A stretch of 64,000 nucleotides of DNA from Methylococcaceae bacterium UBA975 (GCA_002292375.1 DBBV01000020.1:8197-72196); one strand, 5' to 3'. Shown: positions 5,862 through 37,438, counted from the stretch's first letter. Made by a program: numbers and translations. The notes: generated by a model not told the origin, from the letters alone.

Positions 5862-6587
5862 TTAGATAAAGAAACTAGCCGCAAGCGTTTCCATAATCAG
5901 TGCCCAGCCATCCACTAAAACAAACAACATTAATTTAAATGGTAATGAAATAATCAATGGTGACAGCATCATCATACCCATCGACATCAGCACACTGGCG
6001 ACCACCATATCAATGATCAAAAACGGTATGAAAATCATAAATCCAATTTGAAATGCTGTTTTTAATTCGCTGGTTACAAAGGCAGGCAATAAAAGCGACA
6101 GGGGCACTTCGCTACTGTCATTGATGGGCTCGGCACCAGAAATTCGGGCGAACATATCCAGATCATCACTTCTAGTTTGACGCAGCATAAACTCACGGAA
6201 AGGCAAGATAGCCTTAGTGATAGCGATGTCGGCCGATATGTGATCATTTAGGTAGGGTTGCAAGGCCTCATCATTCGCACGCTCAAACACCGGTGACATG
6301 ATGAAAAAAGTTAGAAACAGCGCCAAACCCAAAAGAATTTGGTTGCTGGGCGTTTGTGGGGTGCCCATCGCCTGACGTAAAATAGAAAAAACAATAATAA
6401 TTCGGGTAAACGAAGTCATCATAACAAGCAAACTGGGTAAGACCGTTAACACGGTCATTACCGCTAAAATTTGCAGCGTTACGGAATAACTTTTGCCGTC
6501 ACCGGCAATGGTAATTGCTTCGATACCTCCGGCCGCAAAAGCCAAGTTCGGCATAAGCAATAACAACGCCATGATTAATATTTTCAT
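5862..6587 (-). CDS. fliP: Flagellar export protein FliP
   Basis: [42 protein letters not shown]. Confidence 0.98.
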
Positions 6588-26921: not shown

Positions 26922-29339
26922 CTACTTTATTTTCGTTTCAATGGCGTCTCGCGGGAACTCATCTACCTGAATCACCTTACTGACAAGCCCCATCGCATCT
27001 TGCAATAACTGCCCTTCTTCTGCACTGATGATACCCTGAGACACGCCCTGGACTACAAGCGGCTCAAAATCATTCAGTCCCGGGGTCACGCCTAGCCCCT
27101 GTTTAAGCTTTTTCTCAACAGGTGCTGCATCAAGTACCTTTTCGAACGCTCGGTGCAAAAGACCGGTCGCATCATCGCCATCAGAGCGATAAATTCCACT
27201 CAACAGCCGTTCCCTTGCCGGATTGCGCGTAATCAACACCTGCGCCACATGTTTACCCAATGTATCAGAGGGAACTTTATAGGGGTGACCCAGTGGAAAT
27301 ATCAGCCATTTAACGACCTGCCCAAGCCAAGGAACAGGAAAATTGCGCAAGGTATTGATCAATGCGTCTTGAATCCGCACCAGACTGTCGCGCATGGCCC
27401 AATGCACCAGCGCATGGTCGTCCTTGGGGCAGCCATCATCTTCAAATTGCTTAAGCACTGCTGAGGCAATATACAAGTGACTCAACGCATCAGCCAGACG
27501 CCCTGAAATTTTTTCCTTAAACTTAAAGGAGCCCCCAAATAGCAGTAAAACAAGATCCGATACAAAGGCAAACGCTGCGCTCATTCTGGTTAATTGACGA
27601 TAATAGTGCGCTGTACGCCCATCGACCGGCGCCTTTACAAGCCGAGCACCGGTTAGTCCCATTACCCATGCGCGAACAAAATTGCTGGTGGTATAACCAA
27701 TATGGGAAAAAAAGGCTTCATCAAAGGCTCTGCTATTGGCATCTGAAGGTTCCGCCTGCGCAGCTTGCATTTCCTTCAATAGCCACGGGTGATTACGGAT
27801 GGCTCCCTGACCAAAAACAATCAGGCTACGGGTTAATATATTCGCCCCCTCCACTGTAATGGCTATGGGTAACGCCTGATAGAAGGAGGCCAGATAATTA
27901 TTCGGCCCTTGCATAATACCCTTGCCACCATGAATATCCATTGCATCATTAATGCATTGGCGGTTGCCCTCGGTCATTTGATACTTGAGTATGGCCGACA
28001 ACACGCTCGGCTTTTCTCCCATTTTTAACGCCGACATCGTAAGCAGCCGCGCGGCTTCCATTCGATACGTATTACCAGCAATACGGGCCAGCGGTTCTTC
28101 TATGCCTTCAAAGTATGCGATCGGCAGGCCGAATTGTTTGCGTATCCGAGCATACTCACCGCTCACCTGAGAAGCCAACTTGCTACCCGAAACACCCAGC
28201 GCCGGTAAAGAAATAGCCCGCCCAGCCGCCAGACTATGCATCAACATCAACCAGCCTTCACCGATGCCAGCCTTAGCCCCTATCACATAATCAAGAGGCA
28301 CAAACACCTGATCACCACGGGTTGGGCCATTCATAAACGCACTACCCAAAGGACGATGCCGGGTGCCCGTTGACACCCCTGGCGTGCTCACTGGAATCAA
28401 TGCACAGCTGATGCCGAGGTCTTCTTTTTCACTCAACAAATGATCTGGATCAAGGGTTCGGAAGGCCAGCCCAATGACTGTAGCAACAGGTGCCAGCGTG
28501 ATATACCGCTTGTTCCAATTTAGGCGCAGCCCAATAATTTCTTGCCCCTGCCACTGCCCTTTGCAAATCACTCCGGTATCCGGCATTGCCGATGCATCCG
28601 AGCCGGCGGTCGGCGAAGTGAGGGCAAAACAGGGGATCTCATCACCGCTTGCCAGACGCGGCAGGTAACTATCCCGTTGTTGTTGGGTTCCATAGTGCGC
28701 CAAAAGCTCGCCCGGGCCCAACGAATTTGGCACCATCACCGTTACTGCGGCAGTCAGGTTATGGCTGGCCAGCTTCATTACCACGGCAGCATTACCCAAT
28801 GCGCTAAATTCAAGTCCGCCGTATTCCTTACTGATAATCATACCGAAAAAGCGCAGTTCCTTAAGGAACTGCCACACCGGTGCCGGCAAATCACCTTGCG
28901 ATTCAATCTGCCAGGTATCGAGCATCTTGCACACCGTTTCGACAGGCCCATCCAAAAAGGCCTGCTCCTCTTTAGACAGTTCTGGTTTGGGCACATCGAG
29001 TAATTTTTTCCACTCAGGCTGGCCAGAAAAAAGCTCGGCATCCCACCAGACCGTACCGGCTTCCAAGGCTTCTTGCTCTGTCTGGGATAAGGCAGGCAAC
29101 AGTTTTCGAAACCAGCTGAGTATTGGTTCACTCACATAGTTTTGTCGCAAGGTCCGCAGACTCAGCAGGCCAAACAACACCACCAGAAACCAGCTAAGTA
29201 TCTGTACGGGTAAAGCCGCCAAGTCGGTAACACTGAACAACAAAGCAACCACCACCATTGACACCAATGCGGGTAGTAAACCTGCCCTAAAATACGCAAG
29301 CGCCACTAATACTGAGAATAAAAAAATTAGCTCTACCAT
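26922..29339 (-). CDS. fadE: Acyl-CoA dehydrogenase FadE
   Basis: 805 aa; ALEAGTVWWD, MVPNSLGPGELL, PIAITVEGANILTR. Confidence 0.93.
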   Translation of the reverse strand: MVELIFLFSVLVALAYFRAGLLPALVSMVVVALLFSVTDLAALPVQILSWFLVVLFGLLSLRTLRQNYVSEPILSWFRKLLPALSQTEQEALEAGTVWWDAELFSGQPEWKKLLDVPKPELSKEEQAFLDGPVETVCKMLDTWQIESQGDLPAPVWQFLKELRFFGMIISKEYGGLEFSALGNAAVVMKLASHNLTAAVTVMVPNSLGPGELLAHYGTQQQRDSYLPRLASGDEIPCFALTSPTAGSDASAMPDTGVICKGQWQGQEIIGLRLNWNKRYITLAPVATVIGLAFRTLDPDHLLSEKEDLGISCALIPVSTPGVSTGTRHRPLGSAFMNGPTRGDQVFVPLDYVIGAKAGIGEGWLMLMHSLAAGRAISLPALGVSGSKLASQVSGEYARIRKQFGLPIAYFEGIEEPLARIAGNTYRMEAARLLTMSALKMGEKPSVLSAILKYQMTEGNRQCINDAMDIHGGKGIMQGPNNYLASFYQALPIAITVEGANILTRSLIVFGQGAIRNHPWLLKEMQAAQAEPSDANSRAFDEAFFSHIGYTTSNFVRAWVMGLTGARLVKAPVDGRTAHYYRQLTRMSAAFAFVSDLVLLLFGGSFKFKEKISGRLADALSHLYIASAVLKQFEDDGCPKDDHALVHWAMRDSLVRIQDALINTLRNFPVPWLGQVVKWLIFPLGHPYKVPSDTLGKHVAQVLITRNPARERLLSGIYRSDGDDATGLLHRAFEKVLDAAPVEKKLKQGLGVTPGLNDFEPLVVQGVSQGIISAEEGQLLQDAMGLVSKVIQVDEFPRDAIETKIK

Positions 29340-29550
29340 ATCCTTATACCTCTATATTAATCAATCACATGGCGTTACCAACAACCCTGTGTCCATCCCG
29401 GTACGAATTGTATGAACAACGATTTTAAGGTCAACGTAAAAGCCACTTTAAGCCTTTATCACTGTCTGTCCACGTTTTTCTTTCCCCATTCAGCCGGCAG
29501 CTAAATCAGTGATGGAGCCCGTAAACTAATCGTTACCTATGATTAGGCTT

Positions 29551-29568
29551 TTTTACTCTGATCCCAAA
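29551..29568 (+). repeat. TCTGACCC repeat, type B variant
   Basis: TTTTACTCTGATCCCAAA, one mismatch to the type B consensus. Confidence 0.75.
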
Positions 29569-29587
29569 GGCTTTTGAGGCATTAAAT

Positions 29588-29613
29588 CAATTGATTCTGA
29601 CCCTATTGATTTT
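29588..29613 (+). repeat. TCTGACCC repeat, type A hairpin
   Basis: AAATCAAT-TGATTCTGACCCT-ATTGATTT; directly abuts the truncated attC. Confidence 0.85.
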
Positions 29614-29695
29614 AACAGGCAAAATTTGTTTGGCTAAAATAGAGCGGAGCGAGATAGCCAGCCGTATTTTGGCCTTGTTGATTAACGTGTTATCT
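29614..29695 (-). other. attC site truncated at its right end
   Basis: AGATAAC-ACGTTAATCAACAAGGCCAAAATACGGCTGGCT...TAGCCAAACAAATTTTGCCTGTT, then the type A repeat; the terminal spacer and R' core are missing. Confidence 0.75.
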
Positions 29696-30184
29696 CTTGG
29701 TTGCAACTTTATTGCAGGCGTAAATTCTACCATTTGATTGCGATTTAACTTCTAGGCTACTTTTAGTTAATTTGAGTATGTTTGATGACTCATTGATCCG
29801 CTTTGGAATAAATTGTTTTACATTTAAAAGTTGATCTAATTCTGGATGACTAACATTTACAGACTTAATTTCTGTAGATGATAAAAGAAAATGTCCCTCT
29901 TTTATTTTCCAAATAGAGTTGCCTGTAAGGCTATATTTTAATTCAGGAAAGTTTGGCAATTTAAATAACAGGGTACCAAATCCATTTGATTTTCCAGTGC
30001 GAAAAAAATTAACGTTATAGTTAATCTTTGCTTTCATTTTAGTATTTGAATTATTGACTTCATGTTTACAATGCCAGTTCCCATACAAATCACTTTCATT
30101 GATAGCTTTTTGTCCCGTCGCGAAAGCTGACATAGAACAGACCAACGTAAACAGAGGTAAAACATTAATTAGATTCATTCTCAT
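29690..30184 (-). CDS. Cassette-encoded hypothetical exported protein (beta-barrel/lipocalin-like)
   Basis: Signal peptide, LYGNWHC motif; stop codon lies within the attC inverse core. Confidence 0.7.
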   Translation of the reverse strand: MRMNLINVLPLFTLVCSMSAFATGQKAINESDLYGNWHCKHEVNNSNTKMKAKINYNVNFFRTGKSNGFGTLLFKLPNFPELKYSLTGNSIWKIKEGHFLLSSTEIKSVNVSHPELDQLLNVKQFIPKRINESSNILKLTKSSLEVKSQSNGRIYACNKVATKR

Positions 30185-30200
30185 CCTTATAGCGATTAAA

Positions 30201-30260
30201 AGCTGACGTTTTGAATATGCCGCCGCGCTTTTTGCGGTCGGATTTATTTTTTTGTTAGGT
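30201..30260 (-). other. attC site (60 bp) with a mutated core (GTC instead of GTT)
   Basis: ACCTAAC-AAAAAAATAAATCCGACCGCAAAAAGCGCGGCGGCATATTCAAAAC-GTCAGCT; near-identical to the attC at 34023. Confidence 0.85.
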
Positions 30261-30278
30261 TTTTGGTTTGACGGAAAT

Positions 30279-30303
30279 CAATCGAGTCTGACCCCATTGA
30301 TTT
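30279..30303 (+). repeat. TCTGACCC repeat, type A
   Basis: CAATCGAGTCTGACCCCATTGATTT, 24/25 identical to 31263-31287. Confidence 0.88.
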
Positions 30304-30345
30304 GCGATTAACCCGATACTTACATGTGATTGTTTCATTTTTTCT

Positions 30346-30618
30346 TTAAGCAATCGCTTGAATATCCTCAATATGCTTGGGTTGGCATTTACTTAGGTCG
30401 TAGCTGCTTTGCAGACTTACCCAATAGTCAGGCGTTGTATTGAAGTATTTAGCCAGCCTTAAAGCTGTATCAGGCGTGATTGAACGCCTCTCTTTTATAA
30501 TGTCACCTACCCTTGTCGCAGGCATAAAAGTGTCTTTTGCTAAGCGGTATGGGGTGATGCTCATTTCTTCAAGCAATTCTTGCAAAAAAACACCGGGGTG
30601 AAATGGGTTATTAATCAT
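30346..30618 (-). CDS. higA: HigA antitoxin (HTH XRE)
   Basis: HPGVFLQE, RSITPDTALRLAKYFNTTPDYWVSLQSSYDL. Confidence 0.95.
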   Translation of the reverse strand: MINNPFHPGVFLQELLEEMSITPYRLAKDTFMPATRVGDIIKERRSITPDTALRLAKYFNTTPDYWVSLQSSYDLSKCQPKHIEDIQAIA

Positions 30619-30627
30619 AATTTACTC

Positions 30628-30909
30628 CTAGTGGTAATCAGTTATTTCTACATTGAAAGCATGGCCATTTTCAAACTCAAAACATAGCCTCCATTGTTGA
30701 TTAATTCGTATGCTGTATTGACCCTTTCTATTACCACTAAGTTTTTCCAAGTGATTCGAGGGTGGCAGACGTAAATCTTCAATGACCGCTGCATTATCTA
30801 TCTGTACTAACCGCATCAATGCGCGAGTTTTTAAATTAACAGGCAGTTTTTTAGGAAACTTACCATTAGCGGCTTGCTCAGTTAACTTGTCAGCAAAACT
30901 TTTAATCAT
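30628..30909 (-). CDS. higB: HigB RelE-family toxin
   Basis: MIKSF, DLRLPPSNHLEKL, SIRINQQWRLCF, EITDYH. Confidence 0.95.
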   Translation of the reverse strand: MIKSFADKLTEQAANGKFPKKLPVNLKTRALMRLVQIDNAAVIEDLRLPPSNHLEKLSGNRKGQYSIRINQQWRLCFEFENGHAFNVEITDYH

Positions 30910-30917
30910 AAAAATAT

Positions 30918-30952
30918 AATAACGTCTTTCGTTAATAATGCAAGGCGTTATT
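30918..30952 (-). promoter_or_regulatory. higBA promoter/operator
   Basis: TTGCAT-N16-TATTAT overlapped by TAACG/CGTTA inverted repeats. Confidence 0.55.
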
Positions 30953-30975
30953 GTTTTGCATTGAGCTTAATCATT

Positions 30976-31253
30976 GTTAAAGGAAGGTTTACTGCTTCGG
31001 CAATGTGGGTAGAGCGTTGCACGCCTACAAAGATGTAGGCGGTAGAACGACTCAGGAGACAAAGTCGAGGAGCAATTGCAGAGCACGAACCCGAAAAACA
31101 ACTGATTGTTGCGATTGAGCGCCCTTTTCTTTGGTTCGTAGCTTTTAGTCTCACTTGGCGGTTGTTTTTTTTAACCGCTTAGTGAGACTTATACCTTTAG
31201 GTGATGGGAAAGCAAAAGAAATGAACGCCCTAGCGGCAGCAATAGCCTTTAAC
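30976..31253. repeat. 278-bp structured palindromic element (MITE/REPIN-like)
   Basis: Ends GTTAAAGG...CCTTTAAC; internal hairpins GCCTACA/TGTAGGC and AGTCTCACT...AGTGAGACT; TTTTCTTT/AAAAGAAA arms. Confidence 0.6.
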
Positions 31254-31262
31254 CTATTAAAC

Positions 31263-31306
31263 CAATCGAGTCTGACCCTATTGATTTTACTCTGACCCCA
31301 AATACT
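31263..31306 (+). repeat. Fused type A plus type B TCTGACCC repeats
   Basis: CAATCGAGTCTGACCCTATTGATTTTACTCTGACCCCAAATACT. Confidence 0.88.
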
Positions 31307-31312
31307 TATTAC

Positions 31313-31804
31313 CTATTTAAATCGTTGATAGTCGTCACAAGCTTCATTTTTATTTTTGCGTAAGCTCACATCGTTCGAACCTAATGCAATGGCCGTGGCT
31401 ACATTGCATTTTTTTCTAGCTAGTTGCACCTCACTTTCCACTGTACCTTCAGCAATACTGGCAATAGTTGGTTTAAACGATGCCGCCGCGTAACAGTACA
31501 TGTTTTTTGTTTTCTTATATCGCCAACCAAGTTCAGGTTTTTGTTGTAATTCAAAGCATAGGTCGGCAAACAACTGCTTTGCTGCAATCGTGCATTTAGA
31601 AAAATCTTGAATGTTATTTGTATAGGTATAACAAACACTTTGGTCTCTCACCCGCCATAACTGATGATGAAAAGGCACAACCAAACCTTTATGCTGAATT
31701 GAGACTGCCGTTACTTCTGTGCCAATCAAGTCGGTTATTTCTTCATGCACGCTTACAGAGACATAATTAATATATGCACCAAAAGCCATTGATAGTGGGT
31801 CCAC
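31313..31804 (-). CDS. Hypothetical Cys-containing protein flanked by 23-bp direct repeats
   Basis: 163 aa, GTG start after an AGGAG RBS; no family recognised. Confidence 0.65.
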   Translation of the reverse strand: MDPLSMAFGAYINYVSVSVHEEITDLIGTEVTAVSIQHKGLVVPFHHQLWRVRDQSVCYTYTNNIQDFSKCTIAAKQLFADLCFELQQKPELGWRYKKTKNMYCYAAASFKPTIASIAEGTVESEVQLARKKCNVATAIALGSNDVSLRKNKNEACDDYQRFK

Positions 31805-31910
31805 TGTATTCTCCTTGTGAAAGCCTTAGTCCTTTAAGCCCGATTAAAACCAAATAAAAGTAATTTGGCAACACCGTATTGTTAACCCGACGGAAGATAC
31901 CCGTTAATTA

Positions 31911-31933
31911 ATTTTACTCTGACCCCAAATACT
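31911..31933 (+). repeat. TCTGACCC repeat, type B
   Basis: ATTTTACTCTGACCCCAAATACT, identical to 31284-31306. Confidence 0.9.
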
Positions 31934-31935
31934 CT

Positions 31936-32066
31936 ATATCGTTGTGTCGGTTTTATCTTTAACCAAATCGACCCACTGTTCATACCCTGCCAAAGATTGG
32001 GTGTTATGAACCACATGACCATGTATTTTTGATGTTTCTTTAATGAGCATCATCTACGTCCTTGAG
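31936..32066 (-). pseudogene. 5' fragment of a cassette (about 40-codon ORF) ending at a type B repeat
   Basis: After core GTTAGGG: MLIKETSKIHGHVVHNTQSLAGYEQWVDLVKDKTDTTI*, whose stop abuts the repeat; no attC follows. Confidence 0.55.
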
Positions 32067-32170
32067 CCCTAACGCAGCCATTTGCGGGCTGAGTGAGATG
32101 GCGGTTTTTTTGCGTGTTTTTGCAAAAAAACTGACAGCTCACGGAGATCCGCAAGATGGCCTTGTTATAG
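32067..32170 (-). other. attC site (104 bp)
   Basis: CTATAAC-AAGGCCATCTTGCGG...CCGCAAATGGCTGC-GTTAGGG long imperfect palindrome. Confidence 0.9.
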
Positions 32171-32212
32171 CTGTATTACAATGCATTCGATAAAACCTAA
32201 GTAAGTGATGGG

Positions 32213-32827
32213 TCAATTTGTTATCTTTATCGCTTTCTCTAGGCGCACACCTCCATCGGCAACAATAGCCATAAAAGCTTTACAAACAGCTTCATCATAA
32301 AGGTGTGAATTATTAGTTAGCTCACTTATAACTCTTTCTATTCCAAGCGCCTTTCTATAAGGTCTCGCATTCATCATTGCATCGGTTACATCAGCGACTG
32401 CTAAAATTCTACCACCTAAGCAGATTTTATTACCCATCAATCCATTTGGGTAACCGCTTCCATTCATTCTTTCGTGATGCTGCAAAACCATTTCACGTAC
32501 TGGCCATGGAAAATCAATGCCTGATAATAATTGATCAGCCCTTGCTGCATGGGTTTTGATTAGAGCAAATTCCTCATCAATGAGATCGCCATACTTAGAT
32601 AGCAGCTCATTAGGTATAGCAGATTTACCAATATCGTGTAACTGACCAGCAACACGAATTCCTTCTACTTCAAAAGAACTTAGTTTCATTTCCTGCCCAA
32701 TTAGGCGAGCAATGACGGAGACATTATTTTGGTGTTGTGCAGTGTATACATCACTCGAAGCCATTACAGATGATATGCTGCTAATAAGTTGATATAAAAA
32801 CAAATCACTTCGCTTATTATTTTTCAT
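32213..32827 (-). CDS. Cassette-encoded stand-alone HD-GYP protein (c-di-GMP phosphodiesterase-like)
   Basis: LHDIGK, HHERMNGSGYPNGL, ILAVADV...RPYR. Confidence 0.9.
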   Translation of the reverse strand: MKNNKRSDLFLYQLISSISSVMASSDVYTAQHQNNVSVIARLIGQEMKLSSFEVEGIRVAGQLHDIGKSAIPNELLSKYGDLIDEEFALIKTHAARADQLLSGIDFPWPVREMVLQHHERMNGSGYPNGLMGNKICLGGRILAVADVTDAMMNARPYRKALGIERVISELTNNSHLYDEAVCKAFMAIVADGGVRLEKAIKITN

Positions 32828-32887
32828 TTCCTTCCTTTAGAACCTAAACATATAATTTTCGGTTACAAATCTAAACCCGCTTGATGC

Positions 32888-32977
32888 CTATAACGTTTTA
32901 ATAACTTGCGACTTTGAGGTTCGGCCTGCTTTTTAGGCCGTAGCTCAAAGTTGTCAATGTTGATTTACTTGTTATGT
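32888..32977 (-). other. attC site (90 bp)
   Basis: ACATAAC...GACAACTTTGAGCTACGGCC/GGCCGAACCTCAAAGTCGC...GTTATAG. Confidence 0.9.
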
Positions 32978-32979
32978 GC

Positions 32980-33531
32980 TTATAGCCAATAACGTGGATA
33001 ATGCCTTTTAGGATTTGAAGATAAATTATTTATTACTAATGCAACGAGCAACATAATTACTGCACCTACCCCTATGGGCAATACTACATATAAATATCCG
33101 AGACCATGAATACTGTCACTACCTATAACTGCAATTAAAGCTGTTGCTCCACCTGGTGGATGTAAAGTAACCGTGTAATGCATAGCGACTATTGATAATG
33201 AAACTGCAAGCGCACTTAATAACTCGATATTAAGAGGGATATATTTATAAAGACTGATACCAATAAATGCAGAAATAATATGCCCACCTAATAAATTTCT
33301 AGGCTGTGAAAATTCTGCTTGTGGCGTGCCATAGATTAATACCGCAGAGGCACCAAATGAACCAACTAGAAATAGACTGTTGAGCGCATCTATATGTAGC
33401 CAATTATGGATAGTAGATACAATATAAATACCAATGAATGCTCCAAGCCAAGACCAGCCAATTTTATGGTGCGGCTTTCTCGAAGGTCTTTTATCGCCTC
33501 CAGTCATTTTTTTAAAATATTGTTTAATCAT
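32980..33531 (-). CDS. Cassette-encoded HPP-family membrane protein
   Basis: SFGASAVL, FSQPRNL, HPPGGATAL. Confidence 0.92.
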   Translation of the reverse strand: MIKQYFKKMTGGDKRPSRKPHHKIGWSWLGAFIGIYIVSTIHNWLHIDALNSLFLVGSFGASAVLIYGTPQAEFSQPRNLLGGHIISAFIGISLYKYIPLNIELLSALAVSLSIVAMHYTVTLHPPGGATALIAVIGSDSIHGLGYLYVVLPIGVGAVIMLLVALVINNLSSNPKRHYPRYWL

Positions 33532-33539
33532 GTTTTTTC

Positions 33540-33594
33540 ACATAACGCCAAAAGAACCCGCGCCTATGGCGTCGGGTTGCTTGCCTTGTTAAGC
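33540..33594 (-). other. attC site (55 bp)
   Basis: GCTTAAC-AAGGC-AAGCAACC...GGTTCTT-TTGGC-GTTATGT, canonical R''/L''/L'/R' layout. Confidence 0.92.
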
Positions 33595-34013
33595 AAATTT
33601 TCACCACCACGATAATGCTTAGGTGACAATCGATTTATATCGTGGAACGCTTCTTTATATGAATCGACGGGCCAAGCCCATGCCTCCTGAATTTCATACT
33701 CTTTGTTATACAGCACCCAAACCAGAATATCCCAGTCGTAGTTCTTTGCTTTTGGCACCATTGTTACTTTGCTGCCAGCCTTTCCGGATGGCCGATTACC
33801 TTTAACTTGATAGCGGATATTGTTGAATATGAAATCATAGCCTTTTTGCACGGCTGTTTGTGATTGCATGAAATTTGAATATTCACTTTCACTCATACCA
33901 ACTAATAGCGCCGCATCAAGTTCAGAGAGCGCAGATGTTATTAATGGAGCGACACCAAATTTTTCTTGCCAGCTCAGGGCTACATTAACAAGATTATATC
34001 GAATTCTATTCAT
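33564..34013 (-). CDS. Cassette-encoded hypothetical protein, possible PD-(D/E)xK nuclease fold
   Basis: SELDAA...KGYDFIFNNIRYQVKG resembles an E...D-x8-QxK arrangement. Confidence 0.6.
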   Translation of the reverse strand: MNRIRYNLVNVALSWQEKFGVAPLITSALSELDAALLVGMSESEYSNFMQSQTAVQKGYDFIFNNIRYQVKGNRPSGKAGSKVTMVPKAKNYDWDILVWVLYNKEYEIQEAWAWPVDSYKEAFHDINRLSPKHYRGGENLLNKASNPTP

Positions 34014-34022
34014 GGTTTTATT

Positions 34023-34082
34023 GCTTAACGTTTTAAATAAGCCGCCGCGCTTTGCGCGGTCGGATTGATTTTTTTGTTAGGT
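34023..34082 (-). other. attC site (60 bp)
   Basis: ACCTAAC-AAAAAAATCAATCCGACCGCGCAAAGCGCGGCGGCTTATTTAAAAC-GTTAAGC. Confidence 0.92.
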
Positions 34083-34385
34083 TTTTTCATTGTCAGTTTT
34101 ATTTGCAAATTCGTTGAAGTGCTTTCCAAACGCTTCATCTTCGTAATGGTTTGGATTGTACGAAAGAACGGCTGAACTTAAATGTTTTGTTTTAACTAGG
34201 AGAAGTACGCATGTGGTGGAAAGAATTACTGTTGCAGCTGCCAATAACGCTATTGCTGTGGCTAGCTTATCTACGCTTAAAGGAGATAGGGCAGATACTA
34301 CCCAGTCATGGATTAGCCAGAAAGCAGCGCCCTCTATCAGAACGAGAGAGGCATATTTCACTATTGATAATAGGCTTTTTGACAT
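34077..34385 (-). CDS. Cassette-encoded small two-TM hypothetical protein
   Basis: 102 aa with two hydrophobic segments; stop within the attC core. Confidence 0.7.
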   Translation of the reverse strand: MSKSLLSIVKYASLVLIEGAAFWLIHDWVVSALSPLSVDKLATAIALLAAATVILSTTCVLLLVKTKHLSSAVLSYNPNHYEDEAFGKHFNEFANKTDNEKT

Positions 34386-34425
34386 TTATTGCGCTCCTTG
34401 CTCATCGCTTAGTAGTGACTTAGAA

Positions 34426-34513
34426 ACCTAACGCCCGCCTTCAGCCGGCCGCTTGGAGCGGATGACCGAAGGGAAGTAGCGGAAAGTGGGTCGGCTGCAA
34501 GGCATTGTTATAA
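34426..34513 (-). other. attC site (88 bp)
   Basis: TTATAAC-AATGCCTTGCAGCCGACC...GGCCGGCTGAAGGCGGGC-GTTAGGT. Confidence 0.92.
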
Positions 34514-35437
34514 GCCAGCTTTATTGGCTTCGTTTTCCATCGAATCCCAAAACTCACTATCCAATTTTTTAATTTGGATTGTTTGCTCCACTTGTAGCCC
34601 AACTCCATATTCATACAGGTAGGTAGCGAGCTGCTGGCCGTCAATGAGAATTAAGGTAGTAGCACCGTTTAAACTCTCGGCATAAGAAACCGCGCCCTGC
34701 GAAAATGTAGATGTAGTAATGAATACGCCTTTATTGGATTGAGCCACCGCCAATGCACCAACAAATTTTTGTATTTCTTCTCTACCAACACTATTTGCCT
34801 GAGCGTAGCGTTTTGCCTGAATATGAATACGGCCAAGACCTAGGACATCTTCTTTGATGATGCCGTCTATGCCACCATCGTTAGTGTACGAGGTGACGAC
34901 CCCTGAGCCTTTTATTTCACCGCCATATCCCATCTTTTGCAGCAGAAGTACCACGAGTTTTTCAAACTCTCGTGGTGTTTTACTAAGAACGGTATCAATA
35001 ATTTCCTGATACCTCGATCCCCGAATTTTCTCCGCAGAAGCATACAACTCTTCTTGCGGTGTGAGGCTATCTTGGTTTGTTGCCAACTGTGACGGCTTAG
35101 AGGGTTTCGATTTTTGCTTCTTGGCAAATTCGGCCACCACAAAATCATTTATACCATCGGGCGACGCAAGCTTTTCAGTGCCAAGAGAGCTAATTTCATA
35201 AACGCCACGCTTAGGCTTTTTCAGTAAGCCCGCCATATTCATGTAACTAAGCGCCCAGCTTATGCGGTCATAGAATATCTTTCCGTTCCCGGATTCATAT
35301 TCTTCGTGGAGTTCGTCTTCGGATAAGGCGAAATGCTTTGCTAGTGGCGCTTCGAATTCGCTGAGTTTCAGTTGCCCGCGCTCAGAGAGCAAAGACAGCG
35401 CTGGGACGCGAATTTCATCGTGTTTTGGGATTGTCAC
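34508..35437 (-). CDS. mrr: Cassette-encoded Mrr-family type IV restriction endonuclease
   Basis: N-terminal winged helix (FYDRISWALSYM) and catalytic DGGIDG...HIQAKRY. Confidence 0.92.
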   Translation of the reverse strand: MTIPKHDEIRVPALSLLSERGQLKLSEFEAPLAKHFALSEDELHEEYESGNGKIFYDRISWALSYMNMAGLLKKPKRGVYEISSLGTEKLASPDGINDFVVAEFAKKQKSKPSKPSQLATNQDSLTPQEELYASAEKIRGSRYQEIIDTVLSKTPREFEKLVVLLLQKMGYGGEIKGSGVVTSYTNDGGIDGIIKEDVLGLGRIHIQAKRYAQANSVGREEIQKFVGALAVAQSNKGVFITTSTFSQGAVSYAESLNGATTLILIDGQQLATYLYEYGVGLQVEQTIQIKKLDSEFWDSMENEANKAGL

Positions 35438-35452
35438 GAACTCTCCTCTGAC

Positions 35453-35534
35453 TTATAACGCTTACATAAGGGGCGCGCAGCTTTTGGCGCGTCCCAGTGA
35501 GCGATAGCGAACGAGCTTGATGTTTTTGTTAGGT
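35453..35534 (-). other. attC site (82 bp)
   Basis: ACCTAAC-AAAAACATCAAG...GGGACGCGCCAAAAGCTGCGCGCCCCTTATGTAAGC-GTTATAA. Confidence 0.92.
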
Positions 35535-35556
35535 ATTGCGAGATATAAACCGACAC

Positions 35557-35859
35557 TTAAGATATGCGCTCATAAGTTTGGATTGAAAATTCTACTCCCT
35601 GAGATTGGAACAATGAACTGGACTTACCCATGATGTTGGCCCAAGCGGCGCTTTCCATGCAAGCCTCATGATCGGATTTGGATTCCCACTCCCAATACAT
35701 CATTGTCTCACTCGAATCCGTAGATAGATGAAAAGCGACCGAGACAAACCCCGGCTGTCTTTTTGCTATAGGGATCATTTCCAAACCAACATTTTGTATT
35801 TGTTCCTTAAAAGAAGGTGGAAATCTAACTTTTGAAATCGCTACATAGCTCATTGGCAT
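35557..35859 (-). CDS. Cassette-encoded ABM-family (antibiotic biosynthesis monooxygenase-like) protein
   Basis: RQPGFVS...YWEWESKSDHEA dimeric alpha-beta barrel pattern; first cassette of the array. Confidence 0.8.
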   Translation of the reverse strand: MPMSYVAISKVRFPPSFKEQIQNVGLEMIPIAKRQPGFVSVAFHLSTDSSETMMYWEWESKSDHEACMESAAWANIMGKSSSLFQSQGVEFSIQTYERIS

Positions 35860-35884
35860 TACCTTTGGCAGTTTTCGTTTTGAT

Positions 35885-35960
35885 ACCTAACTTGTTATTA
35901 AGGGGAACAAAAAGTCCCTGTAATTCCTTTACATAGCTGGACAATAATACCCTGTAATCT
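35885..35960 (-). other. Candidate attI site
   Basis: CCCCTTAATAACAA-GTTAGGT resembles attI1 CCCTAAAACAAA-GTT; no complementary attC left arm; two ATTACAGGG direct repeats upstream (35916-35924, 35950-35958). Confidence 0.65.
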
Positions 35961-35969
35961 GATAATCAA
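35941..35969 (-). promoter_or_regulatory. Candidate Pc cassette promoter
   Basis: TTGATT-N17-TATTGT pointing into the array. Confidence 0.4.
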
Positions 35970-36027
35970 GCTCAAAGCATGCCTGTTAACATGAAACAAG
36001 AGGTCAGCCAGCTTGATTTAATTTTGC

Positions 36028-36165
36028 TGTGGGTTACACCATAAGCTGCGACTAGCAACCCTTACATTTACTGGGCTCATGGACTTCATTAACCGTTTGT
36101 TTGCGACTAAATAGAAGCATAAGGTGCGACTTTACCCGTGAAAAGCGGCATAAGGTGCGACTTTA
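36028..36165 (+). mobile_element. Tn7-like transposon end (tns-distal, left-type) with TnsB-type binding sites
   Basis: TGTGGGTTACACC-ATAAGCTGCGACT has the same TGT-to-ATAA spacing as the Tn6677 end (TGTTGATGCAACC-ATAAAGTG, recalled). Further copies at about 36102 (weak), 36117-36134 and 36148-36165 (identical GCATAAGGTGCGACTTTA). Confidence 0.72.
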
Positions 36166-36421
36166 TTATTCTCATGCTGCTTTTAGCTATTTTTAAGTTT
36201 CAAACGATATGGGGGGAGCAATGACAACTGACTGCAAATGCTAGAGAACTTGAACCTTGAACCTCCAACCACCAGTACCACAAACTGGTATCTCTCACGC
36301 CTAACTAATTGATTTTTATAATATATAAAAAAACCATCTAACCTTTTACTGTAGATCACCCTATATGAATCAATAATTTGAACCGTTTGGTTAGACGTTA
36401 TTGGTAATTATCATAAACTCC

Positions 36422-37438
36422 TTATTTATAGTTTTGACACCACGATGCCAACGTATCAACCCATGCTGGATGCTCATTGAGGCAAGGGATTAAATTTAGT
36501 TCACTGCCCCCTGCTTCTTTAAACATTTCGTCTGCGCGAATAGCAATTTCTTCTAACGTTTCTAAACAATCAGTAACAAAAGCTGGGCAAATAACCAATA
36601 CGTTTTTTACGCCTGATTGGGCCAGTTCACGCAAGCGATCTTCCGTATTGGGCCCAAGCCATTTAGCGCGGCCTAGCCTAGATTGGAAGGCGATAGAGTA
36701 TTTATCTGAAGGGATGCCGGCCTGATCAACGAAACATTGCGTGGTACGCATAATTTGGTGGCGGTAACAGGTTTTATGTGCCTCATTGGTTTGTTGGCAA
36801 CAATCTGGACGTTGTAAGCAATGCTGGCCTGTTGGGTCGCGTTTTGTAATGTGCGATTCCGGTAAGCCGTGGTAACTAAAGACGATGTGATCGTACTCTT
36901 CCTCCAAGTATGGCTTGGCACTGAGCACTAGAGCATCAATGTAGTCTGGCTGGTCATAAAACGGTTCAACCACGTTCAGTATAATGTTTAACTGATGTTT
37001 TTTTATAACACGTTCTGCTTCCTCAATTGAAGTGGTGACGGTGCTATCAGCAAAGTGTGGGTAGAGCGGGATGTAAACCACTTCTTCGATACCGGGCTGT
37101 TGACTGAGCGTTAATAATTCACTTTCTATACTTGGTTTGCCATACCGCATAGCCATTGCAACGGGCATATCCAATTTAGCCTGTAGTGCGTTTTTAAGGT
37201 GATCAGATAAGACAACCAATGGCGAACCCTCATCCGTCCAGACGCTTTGATACGCCTGCGCTGAAGCTTTGGGCCTTGTTGGCAACACAAACAGACTAAC
37301 GATCATTCGGCGTAGTAACCACGGTAACTGAATGACGTGGTGGTCCATTAAAAACTGATTGAGATAACGTCGAACTGATGCTGTGTCTGGATTATCTGGT
37401 GAACCCAAATTGGCCAGTAGTACCGCTTTATTAGTCAT
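36422..37438 (-). CDS. hemH: Ferrochelatase
   Basis: LLANLGSP, MRYGKPS, FSYHGLP, FQSRLG, FVTDCLETLEE. Confidence 0.96.
   Translation of the reverse strand: MTNKAVLLANLGSPDNPDTASVRRYLNQFLMDHHVIQLPWLLRRMIVSLFVLPTRPKASAQAYQSVWTDEGSPLVVLSDHLKNALQAKLDMPVAMAMRYGKPSIESELLTLSQQPGIEEVVYIPLYPHFADSTVTTSIEEAERVIKKHQLNIILNVVEPFYDQPDYIDALVLSAKPYLEEEYDHIVFSYHGLPESHITKRDPTGQHCLQRPDCCQQTNEAHKTCYRHQIMRTTQCFVDQAGIPSDKYSIAFQSRLGRAKWLGPNTEDRLRELAQSGVKNVLVICPAFVTDCLETLEEIAIRADEMFKEAGGSELNLIPCLNEHPAWVDTLASWCQNYK

What the first reader, a model, noticed from the sequence alone, without database searches (positions are those of the whole stretch)
29614..35891. Integron array with attI but no integrase; six intact cassettes with diverse attC types
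Seen: attC sites of 55, 60, 60, 82, 88, 90 and 104 bp, and six cassettes with perfectly complementary cores. The heterogeneous attC sequences suggest cassettes collected from several hosts rather than a uniform species-specific array. None of the ORFs is an antibiotic-resistance gene.
Basis: seen in the sequence. Interest (0 to 1): 0.65.

Follow-up and report, generated by a model that had tools for sequence, protein, structure and literature searches.

The report
Satellite integron array without its integrase
A real integron gene-cassette array in a marine Cycloclasticus genome has its own docking site (attI) but no integrase beside it, and near-identical wild strains carry different cassettes at that same site, so the single integrase encoded elsewhere in the genome probably still serves it.

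Summary
On the window's minus strand an attI site (crossover G|TTAGGT, + 35885-35891) heads six intact cassettes. Their attC sites are 82, 88, 60, 55, 90 and 104 nt. In each, the inverse core is the exact reverse complement of the G+TTRRRY at that cassette's start. This is the longest such chain in the 2.33-Mb genome. Below attC6 the array is broken up by repeats and a chromosomal HigBA module.

No intI lies in cis. The genome's only intI (TIGR02249, 443 bits) is on another contig, with a 93%-identical attI and at least eight cassettes. The window keeps only the first few intI codons.

A 36-kb Tn7-like element later inserted 137 bp from the crossover. It did not remove intI: two independent contigs show the empty site, with attI about 170 bp from a ribonucleotide-reductase gene.

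Those near-identical strains carry different cassettes at this orphan attI. One has three extra cassettes inserted exactly at G|TT, one of them identical to the first cassette of this genome's intI-linked array. Another has three unrelated cassettes.

attI-like modules occur in up to five copies per Cycloclasticus genome, usually with one intI.

Verdict: a CALIN-class array with its own attI, probably served in trans. It is a new variant of a known kind.

The parts
35885..35977 (-). Orphan attI. The crossover core is GTTAGGT (+ 35885-35891). Two direct repeats ATTACAGGG lie at + 35916-35924 and 35950-35958. A Pc-like promoter is inferred only: -35 TTGATT at + 35964-35969, a 17-nt spacer, and -10 TATTGT at + 35941-35946.
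   Evidence: 93% identical over 119 bp to the attI beside intI on C21. In an alignment of 24 attI-like copies from the genus, conservation stops exactly at G|TTA. The promoter-like hexamers are my reading; the consensus scan did not list this pair.
35979..36005 (+). Remnant of the 5' end of intI (ATG CCT GTT AAC ...). Homology to the C21 intI fades after about 25-30 nt.
   Evidence: Alignment with the C21 intI-attI region. tblastn with IntI finds nothing else in 35800-36500.
35459..35890 (-). Cassette 1: ABM-fold protein (ORF 35557-35859) plus attC1 (35453-35534, 82 nt).
   Evidence: Chain rule exact. Pfam ABM. The identical cassette follows an intI-linked attI in contig L138.
34432..35458 (-). 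Cassette 2: Mrr-type type IV methyl-directed restriction enzyme (ORF 34508-35437) plus attC2 (34426-34513, 88 nt).
   Evidence: Pfam Mrr_N and Mrr_cat. PADLOC mREase_IV, 2e-57.
34029..34431 (-). Cassette 3: 102-aa membrane protein of unknown function (ORF 34077-34385) plus attC3 (34023-34082, 60 nt).
   Evidence: No family hit. This attC type recurs in the genus.
33546..34028 (-). Cassette 4: 149-aa protein with a weak match to methyl-directed restriction enzymes (ORF 33564-34013) plus attC4 (33540-33594, 55 nt).
   Evidence: PADLOC mREase_II, 1.3e-6.
32894..33545 (-). Cassette 5: HPP-family membrane protein (ORF 32980-33531) plus attC5 (32888-32977, 90 nt).
   Evidence: Pfam TM_HPP, 3e-55.
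32073..32893 (-). Cassette 6: HD_5 / HD-GYP-like domain protein (ORF 32213-32827) plus attC6 (32067-32170, 104 nt).
   Evidence: Pfam HD_5, 2e-37. Fold z = -6.3.
31934..32072 (-). Truncated seventh cassette. It starts TTAGGG, but the expected R'' CCCTAAC is never found. It is cut by a 'TCTGACCCC' type-B repeat at 31907-31933.
   Evidence: Sequence reading; repeats; the chain ends here.
29546..31933 (-). Degraded, mosaic distal part. It holds: a 163-aa ORF (31313-31804); type B and type A repeats (31260-31306); a ~250-bp multicopy element (31009-31257); HigB (30628-30909) and HigA (30346-30618); a type A palindrome (30276-30302); a degenerate attC (30201-30260); a cassette for a 164-aa secreted protein (29690-30184); a truncated attC (~29640-29700); and type A and B repeats (29546-29611).
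   Evidence: The HigBA module is 94% identical to a non-cassette chromosomal copy beside nrd in relative G004. The 164-aa cassette lies next to an attI-like site in relative G012.
36028..36165 (+). Left end of a ~36-kb Tn7-like element (TGTGGG..., three CATAAG(G/C)TGCGACT repeats), inserted 137 bp from the attI crossover. It is context, not part of the integron.
   Evidence: The other end is at C5:3224 with the same 5-bp target duplication TTTGC, and contig C23 overlaps C5 by 24 bp. The empty site is seen in L117 and L143.

Best explanation
[quoted passage not shown] Unlike the usual picture of a CALIN, it is headed by its own complete attI site.

That attI descends from an intI-linked attI. 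It still carries the intI start codon and a few codons. Before a Tn7-like element inserted, it sat about 170 bp from the 3' end of a ribonucleotide-reductase (nrd) gene.

The genome's single intact integron integrase lies on another contig, with a 93%-identical attI and its own array. It most likely acts in trans on this orphan attI and on the attC sites: inserting circular cassettes at the G|TT crossover, excising them by attC x attC recombination, and exchanging cassettes between the two platforms. The first cassettes are probably transcribed from a promoter inside the attI region.

Shown:
- the anatomy of the array;
- the absence of intI in cis and its presence elsewhere in the genome;
- differences of whole cassettes, bounded exactly at G|TT, between near-identical strains at this same orphan attI.

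Inferred:
- that IntI from the other locus catalysed those changes;
- that the promoter is used.
For: Array and attI are real:
- The exact R''/R' chain holds over six cassettes and is the longest chain in the whole genome.
- Bulged bases lie on the 3' arm of the + strand, and all ORFs are on the minus strand.
- The attI is 93% identical to the intI-linked attI.
- In 24 attI-like copies from 12 Cycloclasticus genomes plus one TARA metagenome contig, conservation ends exactly at the crossover, and the sequence downstream is unrelated.

The integrase is elsewhere:
- The only TIGR02249 hit above cut-off (443 bits, full length, no stops) is at C21:15578-16609.
- It heads at least eight chain-verified or model-scored attC sites.

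The Tn7-like element did not remove intI:
- A TTTGC target duplication is present at both ends.
- The exact empty site appears in two independent contigs.

Cassette turnover at this attI:
- L143 (GCA_041633815.1) is 100% identical to this genome over the nrd flank, over the orphan attI (140 bp) and over ABM to HD (3860 bp). It carries three extra cassettes (2650 bp) inserted exactly between two GTTA cores, each obeying the chain rule. L146 (SRR29257515) is 100% identical over the segments it covers and holds the same cassette order, but it breaks off inside the first extra cassette and reaches neither the attI nor the nrd flank.
- One of the extra cassettes, HNH-HIT, is 100% identical to the first cassette of this genome's intI-linked array, but has different neighbours on both sides.
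- The TARA contig L117 has flanks 99.7-100% identical and the same orphan attI, with three quite different chain-obeying cassettes.
- The 310-aa cassette sits in yet another array in L150.

The window's own arrangement is reproduced in independent assemblies, L139-L142.
Against: - No recombination was observed directly. All evidence for activity comes from comparing metagenome or MAG contigs.
- Homologous recombination or attI x attI exchange between the two platforms could move blocks without insertion at the orphan attI. L138 may be a trace of such an exchange.
- The -10 hexamer of the presumed Pc is weaker here (TATTGT) than at the intI-linked copy (TATAGT), and the consensus scan did not list it.
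- The distal third of the array is decaying.
- The assembly is 93% complete, so a second intI cannot be strictly excluded.
- The IntegronFinder attC model could not be run. My out-of-sample model accepts only four of the six sites clearly.
Confidence: 0.78

Rival explanations
1. Dead relic. An integron lost its integrase and is simply decaying, which is the standard reading of a CALIN. The six cassettes are frozen, and nothing recombines here any more.
For: intI is reduced to a few codons. The distal part is cut up by repeats and a truncated cassette. The same six-cassette order recurs unchanged in about 20 metagenome contigs from one sample series. The literature describes CALINs as degraded integrons (PMC9024848).
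Against: Strains with 100% or 99.7-100% identical flanks and the same orphan attI differ by whole cassettes bounded at G|TT. An intact IntI with a near-identical attI is present in the genome. The attI module is conserved across orphan copies in the genus right up to the crossover.
Confidence: 0.08
2. Exchange only. Cassettes are captured solely at the intI-linked attI. The orphan array changes second-hand, by homologous recombination (or attI x attI recombination) through the ~55-bp identical attI stretch and shared cassettes, or by allelic replacement between strains.
For: L138 shows a C21-type attI with intact intI followed by the window's ABM and Mrr cassettes. The two attI copies share long identical stretches. 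The HNH-HIT cassette occurs on both platforms.
Against: In L143 the HNH-HIT cassette has different neighbours on both sides than it has on C21, and its attC carries a different R' tail (GTTATAC against GTTATAA). It therefore moved as a single cassette, not as a block. The orphan-type attI is intact to the last base before the crossover in L143. IntI needs no cis linkage to a double-stranded attI (established integron biochemistry; my knowledge). L138 is a single 2.6-kb metagenome contig and may be chimeric.
Confidence: 0.12
3. Assembly or binning artefact. The attI-array junction, or the separation from intI, arises from mis-joining at the repeated attI in a draft assembly.
For: The genome is a 24-contig draft. 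The attI region is a repeat with three copies.
Against: The same Tn7-end / attI / ABM...HD structure is assembled independently in several samples and studies. The nrd / attI / array junction without the Tn7-like element appears in a TARA contig and in an NCBI MAG. The orphan and intI-linked attI differ at diagnostic positions that stay linked to their flanks.
Confidence: 0.02

Closest known systems
CALIN (cluster of attC sites lacking an integron-integrase; Cury et al. 2016, PMC4889954)
   Same: At least two attC sites with no intI within 10 kb. About half of known CALINs lie in genomes that encode IntI elsewhere, as here. The cassettes have unknown or non-resistance functions.
   Different: CALINs are defined without reference to attI, and IntegronFinder detects attI only for classes 1-3. 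They are usually read as degraded integrons or secondary-site insertions. This one carries a full attI homologous to the intI-linked one. Strain comparison shows whole cassettes gained or lost at that attI.
Sedentary chromosomal integrons, e.g. the Vibrio cholerae superintegron
   Same: Chromosomal location, cassettes of mostly unknown function, toxin-antitoxin and anti-phage genes among them, and the integron conserved in the genus (IntI found in 25 of 28 good genomes among relatives).
   Different: Classical sedentary integrons have one attI beside intI and long arrays of near-identical attC repeats. Here the attC sites are heterogeneous (55-105 nt), the arrays are short, and one intI coexists with several attI modules.
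Xanthomonas integrons and CALINs (bioRxiv 10.1101/2025.06.18.660453)
   Same: CALINs at conserved chromosomal loci away from the intI locus. That paper also states that CALINs can be mobilised in trans.
   Different: There most intI genes are inactivated and the arrays are frozen within pathovars. No attI at the CALINs is reported. Here intI is intact and the orphan array differs between near-clonal strains.
Isolated cassettes inserted at genomic attG sites (SALIN route; bioRxiv 10.1101/2022.09.11.507474) and delta-attI-type cassettes of class 1 integrons (PMC12901181)
   Same: Both are ways in which integron parts end up away from intI.
   Different: attG insertions carry no attI, and that study found that attI sites themselves do not insert into genomes at a measurable rate. 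The present locus has a complete attI plus a piece of intI, which points to duplication or truncation of an integron platform rather than cassette insertion at a secondary site.

Membership tests
Integron gene cassette array | Each attC has an inverse core ...AAC (R'') and a core GTT... (R') at its ends. R'' is complementary to the G+TTRRRY at the start of the same cassette. | tested here: met
   Six of six cassettes match exactly, 7 of 7 bases each. This is the longest such chain in the genome; the background maximum is 3.
Integron gene cassette array | attC folds as an imperfect hairpin whose extrahelical bases lie on the R''/L'' arm of the bottom strand, which fixes the orientation relative to the ORF. 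| tested here: met
   DNA folds of the + strand put the bulged bases on the 3' arm (e.g. T and G in attC3 and attC4), and all ORFs are on the minus strand. The fold z-score is strong for only two sites (-6.1 and -6.3).
Integron gene cassette array | attC sites are recognised by the IntegronFinder covariance model. | not testable with these tools
   That model is not available, and Rfam has no attC family. As a substitute I trained a weight-matrix plus pairing model on 15 sites from outside the window. It ranks four of the six window sites in roughly the top eight untrained candidates genome-wide; two are at noise level.
Integron gene cassette array | Cassettes behave as discrete mobile units: the same cassette appears in different arrays or positions, with differences bounded at G|TT. 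| tested here: met
   Three extra cassettes lie exactly at the attI crossover in L143; L146 repeats that cassette order but does not reach the attI. The HNH-HIT cassette is on both platforms. The 310-aa cassette is in a third array, and ABM follows an intI-linked attI in L138.
attI site | Double-stranded site next to intI that ends in the crossover G|TT, with integrase-binding direct repeats upstream and variable cassette sequence downstream. | tested here: met
   93% identity to the intI-adjacent site. Two conserved ATTACAGGG repeats are present. In 24 genus copies, conservation stops at G|TTA. IntI binding to the repeats is inferred, not tested.
Complete integron (intI + attI + cassettes in cis) | An integron-integrase gene adjacent to attI. 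| tested here: not met
   Only the start codon and a few codons remain. The empty-site contigs show nrd about 170 bp from the crossover, with no intI.
CALIN | At least two attC sites and no integron-integrase within about 10 kb. | tested here: met
   Seven attC sites are present. The nearest intI is on another contig.
Integron integrase (the C21 gene proposed to act in trans) | Tyrosine recombinase with the IntI-specific extra domain, scoring above the TIGR02249 cut-off. | tested here: met
   443 bits against a cut-off of 265, covering the full model, with an open frame. Box II HxLRH, the LGH...Y motif and the RRHH insertion are visible in the sequence. Catalytic activity was not tested.

The most novel reading that the evidence does not exclude
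Cycloclasticus integrons are multi-platform systems. One integrase serves several dispersed attI modules, each heading its own short cassette array: three copies in this genome and up to five in a complete relative. In this genus, then, CALINs are working satellite platforms rather than wreckage. The ~105-bp attI module itself gets copied to new loci by a mechanism not yet described. Recombination between platforms (attI x attI, as contig L138 hints) could shuffle whole arrays and invert the chromosome between them.
Probability: 0.45. Interest if true: 0.75.

Novelty: new variant of a known kind. Interest (0 to 1): 0.6.

Why it matters
CALINs outnumber complete integrons in bacterial genomes, and their origin and activity are unsettled. 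They are usually written off as degraded integrons, and 95% have no recognisable intI pseudogene nearby (PMC4889954).

This locus offers a natural case in which:
- the integrase-less array keeps a full attI;
- its descent from an intI-linked platform is still visible;
- near-clonal wild strains differ by whole cassettes inserted exactly at that attI.

If IntI serves several attI sites in trans, then software that anchors integrons on intI under-counts active platforms. A genome's capacity to capture genes, here including anti-phage genes such as Mrr, would be larger than its integrase count suggests. Several attI sites in one chromosome would also be possible substrates for large rearrangements.

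The system is small enough to test directly: one integrase, two or three attI sites of about 100 bp, and short arrays.

Tried and rejected
- **Rfam.** At gathering thresholds on the whole window and at E<=1 on 29300-32200 it found nothing relevant. No tRNA genes were found.
- **First crude attC scans.** These required adjacent R''/R' complementarity, and they failed even on the true sites. In an array R' is a hybrid, so complementarity holds with the previous core, not the adjacent one. I replaced them with the chain-rule search.
- **Covariance model.** MAFFT misaligned the R' ends of sites of different length. A model from trimmed constructs would have paid heavily for the variable loop. I used a Python weight-matrix plus pairing model instead.
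- **'The Tn7-like element cut intI away from attI'.** Rejected: there is a 5-bp duplication at both ends, and two empty-site contigs have nrd, not intI, on the far side.
- **'hemH marks the ancestral integron site'.** Rejected: hemH lies inside the Tn7-like element.
- **Truncated cassette 7 continuing on C21** (which has a CCCTAAC inverse core). No sequence homology supports it.
- **Other genus genomes with nrd and attI adjacent.** None among 21 species representatives.
- **Literature search for 'orphan/multiple attI'.** It returned only noise.


Full report
**What is there**

All ORFs between 29.6 and 35.9 kb lie on the minus strand, so I read the region on that strand. On it, the sequence ...CCCCTTAATAACAAG|TTAGGT (core at + 35885-35891) is followed by six ORF-plus-hairpin units.

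Each hairpin starts with a 7-mer ending in TAAC and ends with GTTA. In every case the first 7-mer is the exact reverse complement of the G+TTRRRY that opens that same unit. This is the signature left when circular cassettes are inserted one after another by an integron integrase. A cassette's own R' is split by the crossover, so R'' matches the core upstream of the cassette, not the one next to it.

A seventh, degenerate 60-nt site lies at 30201-30260.

**Is it more than chance?**

I searched both strands of the whole genome for chains of this kind. The genome is 2.33 Mb in 24 contigs, and the window is C23:8197-72196. The six-site chain in the window is the longest. The array next to intI on contig C21 comes second, and background chains never exceed three sites.

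I then trained a weight-matrix plus pairing model on 15 attC sites from outside the window. It places four of the six window sites in roughly the top eight untrained candidates of about 100,000. attC5 and attC6 score at noise level because their spacers differ.

Folded as single-stranded DNA, the + strand forms hairpins with the bulged bases on its 3' arm. This fits the + strand being the recombining bottom strand. The fold energies are clearly non-random only for attC5 and attC6.

**The cassettes**

| Cassette | Product | Source |
|---|---|---|
| 1 | ABM-fold protein | |
| 2 | Mrr-type type IV restriction enzyme (PADLOC 2e-57) | |
| 3 | 102-aa membrane protein, unknown function | |
| 4 | 149-aa protein weakly like a methyl-directed nuclease | |
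| 5 | HPP membrane protein | |
| 6 | HD-GYP-like HD domain protein | |

None hits a resistance family. None has a DNA homologue in 21 other species of the genus, whereas the 82-nt and 60-nt attC types recur widely. Cassette G+C ranges from 33 to 46.5%, against 44.8% for the genome.

**The distal part**

Below attC6 the array is no longer intact. A seventh cassette is cut after 139 bp by a short 'TCTGACCCC' repeat. Then come, in order:
- a 163-aa ORF;
- a ~250-bp element that is multicopy in other Cycloclasticus genomes;
- a HigB/HigA pair;
- the degenerate attC;
- a cassette for a 164-aa secreted protein;
- a truncated attC.

A 27-bp palindrome, AATCAATGGGGTCAGACTCGATTGATT, sits at each breakpoint. 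The HigBA block is 94% identical to an ordinary chromosomal block beside nrd in relative G004, so it is not a cassette.

**attI and the missing integrase**

Window 35872-35990 is 93% identical to the stretch between intI and the first cassette on contig C21. A third, 81%-identical copy heads a one-to-two-cassette array on C16.

The C21 gene is the only integron integrase in the assembly. It scores 443 bits on TIGR02249 (cut-off 265), covers the full model and has an open frame. The other hits are XerC/D-like. Its array obeys the same chain rule for six cassettes and continues further.

The window copy keeps the intI start (ATG CCT GTT AAC, against ATG CCT GCT AAC on C21). It then loses all similarity, and tblastn finds no IntI remnant up to hemH.

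The closest IntI relatives, at 97% identity, are in Cycloclasticus MAGs, which names the genus.

**What lies beyond attI**

At 36028 a Tn7-like end begins (TGTGGG..., with three CATAAG(G/C)TGCGACT repeats). The matching end is at C5:3224. Contig C23 overlaps C5 by 24 bp, and both ends are flanked by TTTGC.

So a ~36-kb element, which carries hemH and its neighbours, inserted between the attI and the 3' end of a ribonucleotide-reductase gene.

Joining the two flanks predicts an empty site in which attI lies about 170 bp from the nrd stop codon, with no intI. That exact sequence exists in two independent contigs:
- a TARA Oceans contig (L117);
- NCBI MAG GCA_041633815.1 (L143).

**Evidence that the orphan attI is in use**

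L143 is 100% identical to this genome over the nrd flank, over 140 bp of orphan attI up to and including GTTA, and over 3860 bp from ABM to HD. Between them it holds 2650 bp made of three additional cassettes, each with an exact R''/R' match. L146, a Logan contig from a different run, is 100% identical over the segments it covers and holds the same cassette order, but it breaks off inside the first extra cassette and so reaches neither the attI nor the nrd flank.

One of the three, an HNH-HIT protein, is 100% identical to the first cassette of this genome's intI-linked array. Its neighbours differ on both sides, and its attC has a different R' tail. It therefore moved as a single cassette.

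L117 has flanks 99.7-100% identical and the same orphan attI. It carries three unrelated cassettes (PIN domain, a weak DUF2441 match, a 410-aa protein) and then the same 27-bp palindrome that lies at 30276-30302 in the window.

The 310-aa cassette of L143 also occurs in a quite different array (L150).

The window's own arrangement is reproduced in several independent assemblies (L139-L142).

Differences of whole cassettes, bounded at G|TT, at an attI with no integrase in cis are what integrase action in trans predicts.

One 2.6-kb contig (L138) shows intact intI and a C21-type attI followed by the window's ABM and Mrr cassettes. It may record exchange between the two platforms, or it may be a metagenome chimera across the ~55-bp identical stretch.

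**The genus picture**

BLAST of the attI region against 21 other Cycloclasticus species representatives finds several attI-like copies per genome. A complete genome (G010) has five and G012 has four. Most genomes have one IntI hit; two have three.

I aligned 24 copies. A ~105-bp module is conserved, containing two ATTACAGGG repeats and TTCCCCTTAA-AAC-AG|TTA. Similarity ends exactly at the crossover, and only the intI-linked copies share sequence on the other side.

At least three orphan copies have attC sites or known cassettes on the correct side and in the correct orientation: G021:C9, G010:546k and G012:C38.

**How it most likely works**

IntI made from the C21 locus binds the orphan attI, probably at the conserved repeats, and recombines it with folded attC bottom strands of excised cassettes. 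This adds cassettes at the first position. attC x attC recombination removes them. Cassettes therefore pass between the intI-linked array, the orphan array and other genomes.

Expression of the leading cassettes would come from a promoter in the attI region. TTGATT-17-TATTGT faces the cassettes here, with TATAGT at the C21 copy. This is my reading of the sequence, not a scan hit.

Rivals:
- a frozen relic;
- change only by homologous or attI x attI exchange with the intI-linked platform;
- an assembly artefact.

The strain comparisons argue against the first and third. The second remains possible as a contributor.

**Comparison with what is known**

By definition this is a CALIN (PMC4889954). 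Half of all CALINs lie in genomes that encode IntI elsewhere, and the literature already states that CALIN cassettes can be mobilised in trans.

Three things are not in the papers I could read:
- a CALIN headed by a full attI homologous to the intI-linked one;
- natural evidence that such an attI gains and loses cassettes;
- a genus in which attI modules outnumber integrases several-fold.

IntegronFinder does not detect attI outside classes 1-3, so such cases would go unnoticed.

I therefore class the locus as a new variant of a known kind. It is of moderate to good interest to integron specialists and ordinary in its gene content.

Noticed in passing
window 29585-29611, 30276-30302, 31260-31286; also C16:4715-4741 and 6106-6132, C17:158598-158624, L117 6677-6707: A 27-bp palindrome, AATCAATGGGGTCAGACTCGATTGATT, has about 12 copies in the genome. 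About half sit at the borders of cassette arrays. These include both flanks of the C16 mini-array, the distal end of the TARA strain's array, and a spot ~100 bp from a solitary attC on C17. It looks like a rearrangement breakpoint or a recombination site of another system.
   Followed up: partly
window 31009-31257: A ~250-bp non-coding element is present in many copies in other Cycloclasticus genomes (at least 12 in G004). It has no Rfam match. In G013 a copy directly precedes an attI-like module.
   Followed up: partly
window 36028 to the end of contig C23, continuing into contig C5 (reverse) to C5:3224: A ~36-kb Tn7-like element with TTTGC target duplication is inserted about 35 bp downstream of a ribonucleotide-reductase gene. 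hemH and its neighbours are inside it. The empty site is seen in a TARA contig and an NCBI MAG.
   Followed up: partly
L138 (ENA ERZ27313077 k141_619185): Intact intI and a C21-type attI are followed by the window's ABM cassette and the start of its Mrr cassette. This is either exchange of arrays between the two attI platforms or an assembly chimera.
   Followed up: partly
G000 C16:4774-6135 (L008): A third attI-like module (81% identical) carries a Sel1-repeat lipoprotein cassette, a 60-nt attC and a second ORF. The whole unit is bracketed by inverted copies of the 27-bp palindrome, like a small mobile unit.
   Followed up: partly
G000 C17:158722-158811 and C20:309416-309499: Two solitary attC sites lie away from any attI. 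The C17 site is the best-scoring untrained site in the genome. The C20 site is 87.5% identical to window attC1 and lies beside a small toxin-antitoxin-like gene pair at a contig end.
   Followed up: no
window 30307-30349 versus G004 (L113 ~5000): The HigBA block was copied from a chromosomal context. The first ~11 codons of the neighbouring SpoU/TrmH-like methyltransferase gene are still attached and are cut off by the palindrome.
   Followed up: partly
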